From a virus (taxonomy: Duplodnaviria > Heunggongvirae > Uroviricota > Caudoviricetes), in IMG/VR virus record IMGVR_UViG_2778261087_000007: a DNA stretch of 36,849 nt; one strand, given 5' to 3'. The position numbers and the translations under genes were made by a program. Positions 15,229 through 15,979 of the stretch are shown here, in pieces. Position 1 is the stretch's first letter, and each line of letters begins with the position of its first letter. The notes beneath the pieces are model-generated. The model was not told the origin of the DNA. It made no database searches and saw only the letters and a list, made by a program, of their open reading frames with translations.

Positions 15229-15570
15229 TCAGCGCACGCCGTTATGTTCAAGGCTGAAATGATTGCCGTCAGGGCGGCTTCTGAAGCGTCCGCCCCATGT
15301 TCCACCCAGAGACTCCCAGTATTCGCCCAGCGGGCGATAGGCTTCTGTTGTGGACTGATATTCGCCATTAATAAACAGATTGAAATCCACGGCCAGTCGT
15401 TGACAGTGCAGACTGTTGATGATGCCGCTGCCTTTTGAAGCATTAAGTTTCGCCTGTTCTGGTGTGCGAAAGGCTTCTCCGAAGGTCAGGCCGTAACCCT
15501 GTTGTTCGGCAAACAGAATGAGTCTGCCAATCATGACAGTAAACAACTGTTGCTTTTCTGACAGTTTCAT
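15229..15570 (-). CDS. endolysin, peptidase M15 family (L-alanyl-D-glutamate peptidase-like)
   Basis: Motifs RT..Q, SLHCQRLAVDF and DGNHFSLEH typical of zinc M15 peptidases; start placed at MKLSEKQ (15570), alternative ATG at 15630. Confidence 0.7.
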   Translation of the reverse strand: MKLSEKQQLFTVMIGRLILFAEQQGYGLTFGEAFRTPEQAKLNASKGSGIINSLHCQRLAVDFNLFINGEYQSTTEAYRPLGEYWESLGGTWGGRFRSRPDGNHFSLEHNGVR

Positions 15571-15688
15571 GGTCTGGTTTTCCCGTTCATGCTGTTGCGT
15601 AGCTTTTGTAGTGAGCGCAGCAGTTGCCATACCTTTACAGCGAACTGGCGCATGCCGGAGAGTATGCCCGGCGATGCTTTTTTCCCGG

Positions 15689-15979
15689 TCACTTGTTCTT
15701 TCCTCCGTATTTTCTGCGCAGGTAACGCAGATAAATTTCAAAGACCTGGTATCCGGCAATGCCCAGCGCAGAGCCGGCACCGGCAATGGCCAGTGGACTG
15801 GCGTCAGGAAACTGAACGAGGATTGCTGCCGCCGAGACGCCAAATGCGCCACCCAGTAACGTTCTGCCGACAAACAGCCGTAGTGTCACGGGTTCCGCAC
15901 TGGCGAGGACTTTCCCGGCTGCGGCAAGCGCGCCAAGGATCCCGAGAGTAATCACTGTACGTTCATGTTCCTGGAGCAT
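15689..15979 (-). CDS. holin (3 predicted TM helices, basic C-terminus)
   Basis: 96 aa with three hydrophobic segments and C-terminal LRYLRRKYGGKNK; directly upstream of the endolysin. Confidence 0.65.
   Translation of the reverse strand: MLQEHERTVITLGILGALAAAGKVLASAEPVTLRLFVGRTLLGGAFGVSAAAILVQFPDASPLAIAGAGSALGIAGYQVFEIYLRYLRRKYGGKNK

What the first reader, a model, noticed from the sequence alone, without database searches (positions are those of the whole stretch)
15229..15979. Holin-endolysin cassette embedded inside the tail module
The lysis genes lie between tail tube and chaperone/tape measure genes, unlike the P2 position after the head genes. Together with the different baseplate gene order this shows a mosaic tail module. 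No Rz/Rz1-type spanin pair was found nearby.
Basis: partly seen in the sequence, partly recalled or inferred. Interest (0 to 1): 0.4.

Follow-up and report, generated by a model that had tools for sequence, protein, structure and literature searches.

The report
Spanin-less HP1-type phage lysis cassette
The two genes are a real phage holin and cell-wall-cutting endolysin sitting where all HP1-like phages keep them (so the position is ordinary), but this E. coli prophage lineage has lost the usual outer-membrane-breaking spanin pair and instead carries a tiny, conserved gene for a positively charged helical peptide that may do that job.

Summary
Window 15979-15689 (-) encodes a P2-gpY-type holin and 15570-15229 (-) a 113-aa M15 endolysin. 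They lie between the tail tube gene and the tail chaperone and tape-measure genes.

The "mosaic tail module" reading is not supported. The window is collinear with Haemophilus phage HP1 from portal to orf35, and HP1 keeps hol-lys in this same slot. So did all 50 other M15-bearing relatives I scored. The placement is already known.

- All 50 spanin-bearing relatives carry Rz and an overlapping Rz1 between the endolysin and the chaperone gene, and their holin and endolysin abut or overlap.
- The window's lineage (31 E. coli and E. albertii loci, counting the window) has no spanin anywhere.
- Instead it has a 106-118 bp insert between holin and endolysin.

That insert holds a 35-41 codon ORF (window 15692-15567, -). 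Its stop overlaps the endolysin start codon. It shows purifying selection only in that reading frame. It encodes a +6 to +9 amphipathic helix with no database family.

I read it as a candidate disruptin-like replacement for spanins, with probability about 0.4. This is untested experimentally.

The parts
15983..16438 (-). Tail tube gene (151 aa), the upstream boundary of the lysis slot
   Evidence: Pfam Phage_HP1_Orf24, E=2e-48. 50% identical to HP1 orf24.
15689..15979 (-). Holin (96 aa), P2 gpY / Phage_holin_3_2 family. Three hydrophobic segments and a basic C-terminus (RYLRRKYGGKNK).
   Evidence: Pfam E=2e-31. PHROG 175, E=1.4e-32. 49% identical to L-413C gpY. blastp E=1e-11 to the phiKT holin gp29.
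15567..15692 (-). Small ORF (41 codons, GTG start overlapping the holin stop as GTGA, stop overlapping the endolysin start as ATGA). Peptide: MTGKKASPGILSGMRQFAVKVWQLLRSLQKLRNSMNGKTRP, net charge +9, one amphipathic helix. Candidate outer-membrane disruptor (disruptin-like).
   Evidence: Sequence read. A homologous 27-38 codon ORF is present in all 30 lineage relatives. pN/pS is 0.27 in frame against 0.94 and 0.92 out of frame. Window against L094: 7 synonymous and 4 non-synonymous changes in frame, against 1 and 10 in each other frame. Charge and hydrophobic moment. AlphaFold2 predicts a helix over residues 9-37. No PHROG family.
15229..15570 (-). Endolysin (113 aa), an M15 (LAS) zinc peptidase, probably an L-Ala-D-Glu endopeptidase. 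It has no signal or SAR sequence, so it depends on the holin.
   Evidence: Pfam Peptidase_M15_4, E=6.7e-11. PHROG 1768. PDB profile hits 2VO9 and 2MXZ. Invariant H55, D62, H104 and H109. 83% identical to the Salmonella SI7 endolysin.
15169..15200 (.). 14-bp perfect hairpin in the 93-bp endolysin-to-chaperone spacer, at the place where relatives carry Rz/Rz1. It is terminator-like in both directions.
   Evidence: Terminator-like on both strands. Fold z-score -5.0 in the window and -3.3 for the different-sequence hairpin of L002. Partly degraded in L094.
14851..15135 (-). Tail assembly chaperone (94 aa), the downstream boundary of the lysis slot
   Evidence: Pfam Phage_TAC_10, E=3e-26. 40% identical to HP1 orf26.
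14854..14860 (-). Slippery heptamer A AAA AAA at the end of the chaperone gene. A -1 shift reads through into the DUF6890 frame, as in the P2 E/E+E' arrangement.
   Evidence: Sequence and translation of the -1 frame.
14660..14809 (-). DUF6890 ORF, probably the frameshift extension of the chaperone
   Evidence: Pfam DUF6890, E=2.6e-23. 43% identical to the HP1 region 21538-21669.
12486..14657 (-). Tape measure protein (723 aa)
   Evidence: Pfam PhageMin_Tail, E=3.8e-28. 41% identical to HP1 orf27.

Best explanation
This is the lysis cassette of an HP1-layout Peduoviridae prophage of E. coli, inserted next to serS.

Shown:
- The cassette sits in the family's standard slot between the tail tube gene and the tail chaperone gene.
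- It encodes a P2-gpY-type holin and a cytoplasmic M15 zinc peptidase endolysin.
- It lacks the Rz/Rz1 spanin pair that all 50 M15-bearing relatives carry downstream of the endolysin.
- It has gained a 35-41 codon ORF between holin and endolysin, chained to both neighbours by overlapping stop and start codons.
- That ORF is under purifying selection in its own reading frame.
- The encoded peptide is highly cationic and predicted to form a single amphipathic helix.

Inferred:
- At the end of the late phase the holin opens the inner membrane.
- The endolysin then cuts the peptidoglycan.
- The small peptide, released with the endolysin, binds and destabilises the outer membrane directly. That is the job that phiKT gp28 ('disruptin') does in place of spanins.

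My probabilities:
- Cassette identity and HP1-type placement: about 0.95.
- Lineage truly has no spanin: about 0.85.
- The small ORF is a real translated gene: about 0.8.
- It is the outer-membrane disruptor: about 0.4.
For: Identity and placement:
- Pfam and PHROG hits.
- HP1 gene order and gene-for-gene collinearity of the window with HP1.
- The same order in four isolated phages and in the genome loci recovered with the tube protein.

Loss of spanins:
- Lipobox scan of the whole window and tblastn with Rz, Rz1, LysB and HP1 orf25 found nothing.
- PGAP annotates no spanin anywhere in the full E. coli relative prophage.
- Two-by-two table: 50 loci have Rz and Rz1 with holin and endolysin abutting or overlapping; 31 loci have the small ORF and no Rz or Rz1; there are no mixed cases.

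The small ORF is a gene:
- It fills the whole holin-endolysin gap in both diverged types. The peptides are only 31-34% identical to each other, while the flanking endolysins are 85% identical.
- A Shine-Dalgarno sequence (GGAGG or AAGAGGAG) lies 8-9 nt upstream of the start, and the stop forms an ATGA overlap with the endolysin start.
- pN/pS is 0.27 in frame against 0.94 and 0.92 in the other frames. The holin behaves the same way: 0.45 against 1.17 and 1.47.
- In the window-type pair, 7 synonymous and 4 non-synonymous changes in frame against 1 and 10 in each other frame.
- Length variants are in frame: -1, -3 and +3 codons.
- Independent gene callers called it on many contigs.

Disruptin-like properties:
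- 27-41 aa, net charge +6 to +9, hydrophobic moment 0.61-0.78. phiKT gp28 is 56 aa, +7 and 0.68; LL-37 is 37 aa, +6 and 0.89.
- AlphaFold2 predicts a single helix over residues 9-37, with central pLDDT 80-91.
- Only 2 of 276 chance small ORFs in the window, a set that may include the ORF itself, and 2 of 75 in the lysis slots of spanin-bearing relatives combine such charge and amphipathicity.
- phiKT likewise places its disruptin between endolysin and holin, and its holin is homologous to this one.
- Holt et al. define the class and predict more members in spanin-less phages.
Against: - There is no experimental evidence of translation or function.
- The spanin loss and the ORF gain are a single evolutionary event in one lineage, so the perfect complementarity counts as one observation.
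- No isolated, plaque-forming phage of this lineage exists in the phage collection. Lytic competence is therefore only inferred from intact genes and strong purifying selection on the endolysin (pN/pS 0.07).
- The ORF is short, all three frames are largely open there, and variable sites show no third-position excess (8, 8 and 10).
- The pN/pS values are pooled pairwise counts on 105 nt and are not phylogenetically independent.
- Recovering in-frame indels from a protein database is partly an ascertainment effect, and one frameshifted variant (P0015) exists.
- Two natural variants truncate the peptide, to 27 and 33 aa.
- In the window the ATG used by the E. coli type is ATA, so the start must be the upstream GTG or an internal ATG that has no Shine-Dalgarno sequence.
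- There is no sequence similarity to phiKT gp28.
Confidence: 0.45

Rival explanations
1. The lineage is simply spanin-less. The small ORF is a real gene but not an outer-membrane disruptor. It could be a translational relay that passes ribosomes from the holin to the endolysin, or a lysis-timing or holin-level accessory factor, like the extra factor Lcc6 found in Shewanella LambdaSo. Outer-membrane rupture would then be left to shear, osmotic pressure or host factors.
For: - In spanin-bearing relatives the endolysin start overlaps the holin stop (gap -4 or -14 nt in most loci). Coupling is therefore ancestral, and the ORF preserves it at both ends.
- About 13-15% of phages of Gram-negative hosts have no recognisable spanin.
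- LambdaSo needs a fourth small lysis factor of unknown mechanism.
- Peptide constraint is moderate (pN/pS 0.27), and truncated variants exist.
Against: - A pure relay would not need amino-acid-level selection.
- A relay would not need charge and amphipathicity to be conserved across types that share only 31-34% identity.
- Known antiholins and Lcc6 are membrane-spanning proteins, and this peptide has no transmembrane segment.
- The ORF's appearance coincides exactly with the spanin loss.
Confidence: 0.3
2. The holin-endolysin gap is a non-coding spacer, for example a recombination scar or a regulatory RNA, and the ORF is fortuitous. The prophages would be decaying elements that lost their spanins.
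For: - All three frames are mostly open in this short stretch, and there is no third-position excess.
- PGAP does not annotate the ORF in RefSeq E. coli genomes.
- There is no PHROG family for the peptide.
- No isolated phage of the lineage is known.
- The L002 gap RNA folds somewhat better than shuffled sequence (z=-2.3).
Against: - The excess of synonymous changes is specific to one frame in two independent comparisons.
- Length changes are in frame.
- No conserved RNA structure is found: the covariation term is -0.01 and the window z-score is -0.42.
- All other phage genes are intact in every locus annotated, with no pseudogene flags.
- The endolysin is under strong constraint (pN/pS 0.07).
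- The state has persisted across the divergence between the window type and the E. coli type, which are about 78% identical in DNA.
Confidence: 0.12
3. Spanin function is present but unrecognised. It would come from a non-canonical spanin or other outer-membrane disruptor encoded elsewhere in the prophage, or be supplied by another prophage in the host.
For: - Spanins are very diverse, and some were found only by experiment, such as the nested pair in LambdaSo.
- Several prophage genes have no assigned function.
Against: - No ORF in any frame has a credible lipoprotein signal.
- No homology to any Rz, Rz1, LysB or HP1 orf25 was found.
- The accessory genes differ between the window and the E. 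coli-type relative, so none is a lineage-wide candidate.
- The only lineage-specific conserved novelty in the lysis slot is the small ORF.
Confidence: 0.08
4. One reading: the lysis genes were inserted into the tail module by recent mosaic recombination, which makes the tail module unusual.
For: - The holin is of the P2 gpY type, and the endolysin (M15) has no counterpart in HP1 or P2.
- The alleles occupying the slot have therefore been exchanged during evolution.
Against: - The slot itself is ancestral. HP1, four isolated Peduoviridae and every genome locus recovered have a lysis cassette between tube and chaperone.
- The baseplate and tail gene order is collinear with HP1 through orf35.
Confidence: 0.03

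Closest known systems
Haemophilus phage HP1 late region (orf23 sheath, orf24 tube, hol, lys, orf25 Rz-like plus overlapped Rz1, orf26 chaperone, orf27 tape measure)
   Same: - Same gene order and same slot for the lysis genes.
- The window is collinear with HP1 from portal to orf35, with 27-58% protein identity.
   Different: - The HP1 holin and lysozyme-type endolysin are not homologous to those here.
- HP1 has an i-spanin (orf25) and an overlapped lipoprotein o-spanin (LLAC lipobox). The window has neither.
- HP1 has no ORF between hol and lys.
Enterobacterial HP1-layout Peduoviridae: Salmonella SI7 (Irrigatiovirus), Yersinia vB_YenM_324, Cronobacter ESSI-2 (Seongnamvirus), Escherichia ESSI2_ev239 (Evevirus)
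   Same: - Same holin family.
- Same M15 endolysin (77-83% identity).
- Same chaperone, DUF6890 and tape-measure genes, in the same order.
   Different: - These phages have Rz and Rz1 directly after the endolysin.
- Their holin and endolysin abut or overlap, with no intervening ORF.
- The window lineage has the reverse of both.
Escherichia phage phiKT lysis cassette (gp27 endolysin, gp28 disruptin, gp29 holin)
   Same: - A spanin-less phage of E. coli.
- A small cationic amphipathic peptide gene lies between the holin and endolysin genes and overlaps its neighbour.
- Peptide charge (+7) and hydrophobic moment (0.68) are comparable.
- The phiKT holin gp29 is homologous to the window holin (E=1e-11).
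   Different: - No sequence similarity between gp28 (56 aa) and the 35-41 aa peptides.
- Different gene order and a different endolysin type (T4-lysozyme-like).
- phiKT is a virulent podovirus.
- gp28 function is demonstrated experimentally, and the function here is not.
P2 lysis region (X, Y, K, lysA, lysB, lysC between head gene L and tail genes R and S)
   Same: The holin is homologous (49% identity to gpY), and both are late-operon lysis cassettes of Peduoviridae.
   Different: - In P2 the cassette lies after the head genes and before R and S, not after the tube gene.
- The P2 endolysin K is a lysozyme.
- P2 has the antiholin-like LysA and the spanins LysB and LysC. None of these is present in the window.

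Membership tests
HP1-type late-operon lysis slot (Peduoviridae of HP1 layout) | Lysis genes lie between the tube gene (HP1 Orf24 family) and the tail chaperone gene (HP1 orf26 family), on the same strand | tested here: met
   The tube is 50% and the chaperone 40% identical to the HP1 proteins, and the order is identical.
HP1-type late-operon lysis slot (Peduoviridae of HP1 layout) | The rest of the structural module is collinear with HP1 (portal through orf35) | tested here: met
   20 of the 26 window structural genes compared match HP1, all in the same order. The only addition is a second tail fibre and assembly pair.
HP1-type late-operon lysis slot (Peduoviridae of HP1 layout) | An Rz-like i-spanin with an overlapping Rz1 lipoprotein lies downstream of the endolysin | tested here: not met
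   There is only a 93-bp spacer with a hairpin in the window, while all 50 M15-bearing relatives have both genes.
Phage_holin_3_2 / P2 gpY holins | Sequence membership above the curated threshold | tested here: met
   Pfam 108.7 bits against a cut-off of 25. PHROG 175. 49% identity to gpY.
Phage_holin_3_2 / P2 gpY holins | Small membrane protein with several hydrophobic segments and a charged C-terminal tail | tested here: met
   Read directly from the translation: three hydrophobic stretches and the C-terminus RYLRRKYGGKNK. No topology predictor was run.
Phage_holin_3_2 / P2 gpY holins | Timed hole formation in the inner membrane | not testable with these tools
   Needs expression and lysis-curve experiments.
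M15 / LAS zinc peptidase endolysins (L-Ala-D-Glu peptidase type, e.g. T5 endolysin, Ply500) | Sequence membership above the curated threshold | tested here: met
   Pfam Peptidase_M15_4, 43 bits against a cut-off of 25. PHROG 1768 'endolysin'.
M15 / LAS zinc peptidase endolysins (L-Ala-D-Glu peptidase type, e.g. T5 endolysin, Ply500) | Zinc-ligand motif: His-x6-Asp plus a C-terminal His | tested here: met
   S-L-H55-CQRLAV-D62 and N-H104-FSLE-H109 are invariant in 11 homologues. They align with the corresponding motifs of 2VO9.
M15 / LAS zinc peptidase endolysins (L-Ala-D-Glu peptidase type, e.g. T5 endolysin, Ply500) | Similarity to solved L-Ala-D-Glu peptidases | tested here: inconclusive
   The single-sequence search gave no hit. 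The profile search gave 2VO9 at E=6e-4, 2MXZ at E=9e-3 and 8Q2G at E=0.04. Bond specificity was not tested.
Two-component spanins (Rz/Rz1, LysB/LysC) | An i-spanin with an N-terminal transmembrane domain plus an o-spanin lipoprotein (lipobox Cys), embedded, overlapped or adjacent, in the lysis cassette | tested here: not met
   No credible lipobox ORF in six frames. No homology. None is annotated in the E. coli relative prophage.
Disruptins (functional class founded by phiKT gp28) | Small (<80 aa), strongly cationic (at least +4), with no transmembrane domain or signal sequence | tested here: met
   27-41 aa and +6 to +9. The thresholds are those used by Holt et al..
Disruptins (functional class founded by phiKT gp28) | Predicted amphipathic alpha-helical structure | tested here: met
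   Hydrophobic moment 0.61-0.78 over 18 residues. AlphaFold2 predicts a helix over residues 9-37 with central pLDDT 80-91.
Disruptins (functional class founded by phiKT gp28) | Encoded in the lysis cassette of a phage that lacks spanins | tested here: met
Disruptins (functional class founded by phiKT gp28) | Sequence homology to gp28 | tested here: not met
   No blastp similarity. The class is defined by function, so this argues against common descent, not against the mechanism.
Disruptins (functional class founded by phiKT gp28) | Disrupts the outer membrane; complements lambda Rz-am Rz1-am; antimicrobial as a synthetic peptide | not testable with these tools
   Requires the genetic complementation and peptide assays described.

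The most novel reading that the evidence does not exclude
The 35-41 codon ORF between holin and endolysin is a second disruptin family, unrelated in sequence to phiKT gp28. It would have replaced the Rz/Rz1 spanin pair in one lineage of otherwise syntenic temperate HP1-type E. coli prophages. Spanin-bearing sister phages (SI7, ESSI-2, YenM_324) share the same holin family and a 77-83% identical endolysin, so the lineage would be a natural swap experiment. It would show that a single short cationic helix can take over outer-membrane disruption.
Probability: 0.4. Interest if true: 0.65.

Novelty: new variant of a known kind. Interest (0 to 1): 0.45.

Why it matters
The position of the cassette does not matter, because it is the textbook HP1 layout.

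The spanin-less variant could matter.
- How the roughly 13-15% of Gram-negative phages without recognisable spanins breach the outer membrane is still described as an open question.
- Only one disruptin, phiKT gp28, has been demonstrated.
- Here the question becomes directly testable in a clean comparative setting. Close relatives differ essentially by 'Rz/Rz1 present' against 'small cationic ORF present'.
- The host is E. coli, where the lambda Rz/Rz1 complementation assay already exists.

If confirmed, the finding would do three things:
- Give a second disruptin family, this time in temperate myoviruses.
- Provide a search rule for finding more: a small cationic ORF translationally chained inside holin-endolysin pairs of spanin-less phages.
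- Add a 27-41 residue Trp-rich peptide scaffold of possible antimicrobial interest.

It also flags an unannotated gene in RefSeq E. coli prophages.

Tried and rejected
1. All frames were read. The 93-bp spacer after the endolysin and the 118-bp gap before it are too short for an Rz, and neither contains a lipobox.
2. Spanins elsewhere in the window. The lipobox regex on all start-to-stop ORFs returned only antisense or out-of-frame junk. tblastn with six spanin sequences gave nothing better than E=0.002, and that hit lies inside a tail-fibre gene.
3. A longer endolysin. The TTG start at 15873 and the ATG at 15630 were both rejected. The extension is not conserved, and in L002 the upstream frame has no start.
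4. A conserved RNA element in the gap. RNAalifold found no covariation, and the window fold is no better than shuffled sequence.
5. Single-sequence PDB search for the endolysin gave no hit. Only the profile search reached the L-Ala-D-Glu peptidases.
6. Family search for the peptide in PHROGs returned nothing.
7. Looking for the peptide outside this lineage. The large protein database returned only 15 clusters, and the three whose contigs I retrieved sit in the same holin-ORF-endolysin context. The peptide-based IMG/VR scan returned exactly the contigs already found with the tube protein. The metagenome scan returned only a contig identical to the window.
8. Looking for an isolated phage of the lineage. 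Megablast of 19-23 kb of structural genes against 50,697 phage records gave only short tail-fibre or endolysin matches.
9. Literature search for a described disruptin in Peduoviridae or P2/HP1-like prophages found none. The co-occurrence hit I opened was incidental.
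Full report
**1. What is at the coordinates**

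All genes in this part of the window run on the minus strand. In transcription order they are:

| Gene | Window coordinates | Evidence (unless stated) |
|---|---|---|
| Sheath | 17628-16435 | Pfam DUF2586, E=1e-127 |
| Tube | 16438-15983 | Phage_HP1_Orf24, E=2e-48 |
| 96-aa protein | 15979-15689 | Phage_holin_3_2, E=2e-31 |
| 113-aa protein | 15570-15229 | Peptidase_M15_4, E=6.7e-11 |
| Tail assembly chaperone | 15135-14851 | Phage_TAC_10 |
| Small ORF | 14809-14660 | DUF6890 |
| Tape measure | 14657-12486 | PhageMin_Tail |

- PHROGs independently calls the 96-aa and 113-aa proteins 'holin' (phrog_175, E=1.4e-32) and 'endolysin' (phrog_1768, E=4.9e-14).
- The holin is 49.5% identical to gpY of P2-type phages.
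- The endolysin has more than 300 phage homologues, and those listed are mostly annotated as endolysin or M15 peptidase.
- Its H55-x6-D62 and H104/H109 motifs are invariant in 11 homologues.
- As a profile, its best PDB matches are the L-Ala-D-Glu peptidases of Listeria phage A500 (2VO9, E=6e-4) and T5 (2MXZ, E=9e-3).
- It has no signal or SAR sequence, so it should depend on the holin. This is inference from established holin-endolysin biology.
- The 214-aa TTG ORF that a mechanical ORF list gives for 15873-15229 is an artefact that overlaps the holin out of frame.

**2. Is the position unusual?**

It is not.
- The window carries an E. coli prophage next to serS. The serS part (window 1-1293) matches all 5,426 E. 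coli genomes, most at 99% or more, and an E. coli relative sits at the same dmsA/serS site.
- Haemophilus phage HP1 has exactly the order orf23 sheath, orf24 tube, hol, lys, orf25 (Rz-like), orf26, orf27.
- tblastn of 26 window structural proteins against HP1 shows collinearity from portal to the last baseplate gene, orf35. This includes DUF2590, J, an I-like gene, the fibre, then orf33, orf34 and orf35.
- The same layout occurs in Salmonella SI7, Yersinia vB_YenM_324, Cronobacter ESSI-2 and Escherichia ESSI2_ev239.
- It also occurs in every locus recovered from one-genome-per-species bacterial genomes.
- P2 differs: its order is L, X, Y, K, lysA, lysB, R, S.

The contrast with P2 is therefore the known HP1-type against P2-type layout difference within Peduoviridae. 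It is not evidence of mosaicism of this particular tail module.

What has been exchanged are the alleles in the slot. The holin is P2-Y-like and the endolysin is M15, whereas HP1 has an unrelated holin and a lysozyme-type enzyme.

**3. The missing spanins**

In HP1 the endolysin is followed by orf25, which has an N-terminal transmembrane domain and is annotated Rz-like. An overlapped +1-frame lipoprotein ORF (…MLLAC|S…) follows. The isolated enterobacterial relatives have the same pair.

I scored 81 loci by tblastn for tube, holin, M15, Rz, Rz1 and chaperone.

| Group | Loci | Rz and Rz1 | Holin stop to endolysin start | Endolysin stop to chaperone start |
|---|---|---|---|---|
| Spanin-bearing relatives | 50 | both present | about -14 to +3 nt | about 450-490 nt |
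| Window lineage | 31 | both absent | 106-118 nt | 73-95 nt |

- The 31 loci are the window and two copies identical to it, one E. coli draft-assembly variant, E. albertii, and E. coli prophages from RefSeq, IMG/VR and read-archive assemblies.
- There are no mixed cases.
- Within the window there is no credible lipoprotein ORF in any frame.
- There is no similarity to any Rz, Rz1, LysB or HP1 orf25.
- PGAP annotates no spanin in the whole E. coli-type prophage.

**4. What replaced them**

The holin-endolysin gap is filled completely by a small ORF.

In the window (15692-15567):
- A GTG overlaps the holin stop (GTGA).
- GGAGG lies 9 nt upstream of that GTG.
- The ORF has 41 codons.
- Its stop overlaps the endolysin ATG (ATGA).
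- The peptide is MTGKKASPGILSGMRQFAVKVWQLLRSLQKLRNSMNGKTRP.

In the E. coli and E. albertii type:
- An ATG lies 5 nt after the holin stop, preceded by AAGAGGAG.
- The ORF has 35 codons and the same ATGA junction.
- The peptide is MLSRREQKAAAIAWKIIRALWYWLRKPQQPHKEQK.

The two peptide types align over their whole length at only 31-34% identity. The flanking endolysins are 85% identical.

Evidence that the ORF is a gene:
- Pooled pairwise pN/pS over 18 distinct E. coli-type haplotypes is 0.27 in the proposed frame, against 0.94 and 0.92 in the other two frames. This mirrors the holin (0.45 against 1.17 and 1.47).
- The window and its nearest variant L094 differ at 11 sites in the ORF. In frame, 7 are synonymous and 4 give conservative replacements (K4R, V21L, S27A). 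In each other frame the split is 1 synonymous to 10 non-synonymous.
- Length variants are in frame, at -1, -3 and +3 codons. Two nonsense variants only trim the C-terminal tail, to 33 and 27 aa.
- Gene callers of independent collections called it on dozens of contigs. NCBI lists the 41-aa form as a hypothetical protein of E. coli.

Caveats:
- The ORF is short, and all three frames are mostly open there.
- Variable sites show no third-position excess (8, 8 and 10).
- The pN/pS figures are non-independent pairwise sums over 105 nt.
- The protein-database route is biased towards intact ORFs, and one frameshifted variant exists (P0015).
- In the window the ATG of the E. coli type is ATA, so initiation must use the upstream GTG or an internal ATG without a Shine-Dalgarno sequence.

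A conserved RNA structure does not explain the region. The covariation term is -0.01, and the window fold has z=-0.42.

**5. What the peptide looks like**

| Peptide | Length (aa) | Net charge | Hydrophobic moment (18 residues) |
|---|---|---|---|
| Window lineage peptides | 27-41 | +6 to +9 | 0.61-0.78 |
| LL-37 | 37 | +6 | 0.89 |
| phiKT gp28 | 56 | +7 | 0.68 |

- The lineage peptides have no hydrophobic stretch long enough to span a membrane.
- AlphaFold2 on the 15-sequence alignment gives one helix over residues 9-37, with pLDDT 80-91 in the centre.
- As a chance control, 39 of 276 spurious small ORFs in the window reach +7, but only 2 also reach a moment of 0.6. That set may include the ORF itself.
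- In the lysis slots of the 50 spanin-bearing relatives, 2 of 75 small same-strand ORFs qualify, and both are out-of-frame overlaps of real genes.
- The peptide has no PHROG family.
- It was found in no other prophage lineage in IMG/VR, and the database hits checked for context lie in this same cassette.

**6. Most likely mechanism**

Holt et al. showed that the spanin-less coliphage phiKT uses gp28 to disrupt the outer membrane. gp28 is a small cationic amphipathic peptide encoded between its endolysin and holin. It fully complements lambda Rz/Rz1 mutants. They predicted that other spanin-less phages encode unrelated 'disruptins'. A 2026 paper still calls this an open question.

The window's cassette has the same logic:
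- the same holin family (phiKT gp29 against the window holin, E=1e-11);
- a small cationic helix gene chained between holin and endolysin;
- no spanins.

My best explanation has three steps:
- The holin opens the inner membrane.
- The M15 endolysin degrades the peptidoglycan.
- The co-translated peptide destabilises the outer membrane.

The first two steps rest on family membership. The third is inference from anatomy, selection and analogy, and I put it at about 0.4.

The main rival (about 0.3) is that the ORF is real but serves translational relay or lysis timing. In that case the lineage would be truly without an outer-membrane factor.

Against decay, which would fit that rival or the non-coding one:
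- All genes are intact in the E. coli-type prophage annotated by PGAP.
- The endolysin is under strong constraint (pN/pS 0.07).
- The spanin-less state spans the roughly 78% DNA identity between the two types.

However, no isolated phage of the lineage exists in the collection, so lytic competence is not demonstrated. The spanin loss and ORF gain are also one evolutionary event, not replicated evidence.

**7. Comparison and novelty**

- The finding as written, a lysis cassette inside the tail module, is already known biology of HP1-type phages.
- The cassette is a member of the P2-Y holin family and the M15 endolysin family.
- It fails the spanin feature of the HP1-type cassette.
- The small ORF meets every sequence-level criterion used for disruptin candidates but shares no sequence similarity with gp28. 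Its function could not be tested here.

I rate the whole as a new variant of a known kind, with interest 0.45. That is low for the placement. It is moderate for a clean, directly testable natural swap of spanins for a small peptide in E. coli.

Noticed in passing
window 14854-14860 (-), with ORFs 15135-14851 and 14809-14660: The chaperone gene ends in GTA AAA AAA TAA. A -1 slip on A AAA AAA reads IKASLGAINRNDLTRMMALRRHW… straight into the DUF6890 ORF. DUF6890 is therefore probably the frameshift extension of the tail chaperone (like P2 E/E+E' or lambda G/GT), not a separate gene as PGAP annotates it.
   Followed up: partly
window 15169-15200 (either strand): A 14-bp perfect hairpin (GCTGATTAAGCC…GGCTTAATCAGC) lies in the 93-bp endolysin-chaperone spacer, exactly where relatives have Rz/Rz1. 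It has an A-run before it and a T-rich tract after it, so it is terminator-like in both directions (z=-5.0). E. coli and E. albertii relatives have a hairpin of different sequence at the same place (z=-3.3), and it is partly degraded in L094. It could be an attenuator, an mRNA stabiliser or a scar of the spanin deletion; which one is unexplained.
   Followed up: partly
window 1604-1738 (-): A Hok/Gef-like small toxin ORF (53% identical to the Hok/Gef protein annotated in the E. coli relative) lies between serS (1-1293) and the distal baseplate gene of the prophage. It may be a prophage-end addiction module.
   Followed up: partly
window 8787-10340 / 8248-8808 and 6660-8228 / 6049-6660 (-): There are two tandem tail-fibre plus fibre-assembly gene pairs where HP1 has one (orf31/orf32). 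The E. coli relative has two fibre genes as well. Parts of its fibre region match phiP27, Mu and D6 fibre or assembly genes at 84-89% DNA identity, so this is the truly mosaic part of the tail module.
   Followed up: partly
L089 3762-3845; L074, L079, L087; protein P0015: Natural variants of the small peptide occur: a nonsense codon leaving 27 aa (L089), one leaving 33 aa (L074 group), and a frameshifted C-terminus (P0015). If the peptide is functional, these define a minimal core (…AIVWKIIRALWRWLRKP) that could be tested.
   Followed up: no
L001 (Cronobacter phage ESSI-2, NC_047854) 5695-5946 and 6818-7248; L004 (YenM_324) 3113-4252: Annotation gaps in reference phages. ESSI-2 has no CDS called for its holin or for its chaperone and DUF6890 genes. 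Its overlapped lipoprotein ORF (…SLSAC…) is labelled 'hypothetical protein' rather than o-spanin. The YenM_324 sheath gene is labelled 'topoisomerase'.
   Followed up: no
L002 4897-5004 and the equivalent position in 41 complete E. coli genomes: The 35-codon ORF between holin and endolysin is not annotated by PGAP in RefSeq E. coli genomes, so a probably real gene is systematically missing from these records.
   Followed up: partly
window 25374-26000 (+) and 25029-25352 (+): Downstream of the portal gene lie an Ogr/Delta-type zinc-finger ORF and a 208-aa multi-pass membrane protein of unknown function (phrog_12870, E=2e-83). The E. coli-type relative has no gene annotated like the membrane protein in that region. 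This makes it an accessory (moron-like) gene and not a lineage-wide lysis candidate.
   Followed up: partly
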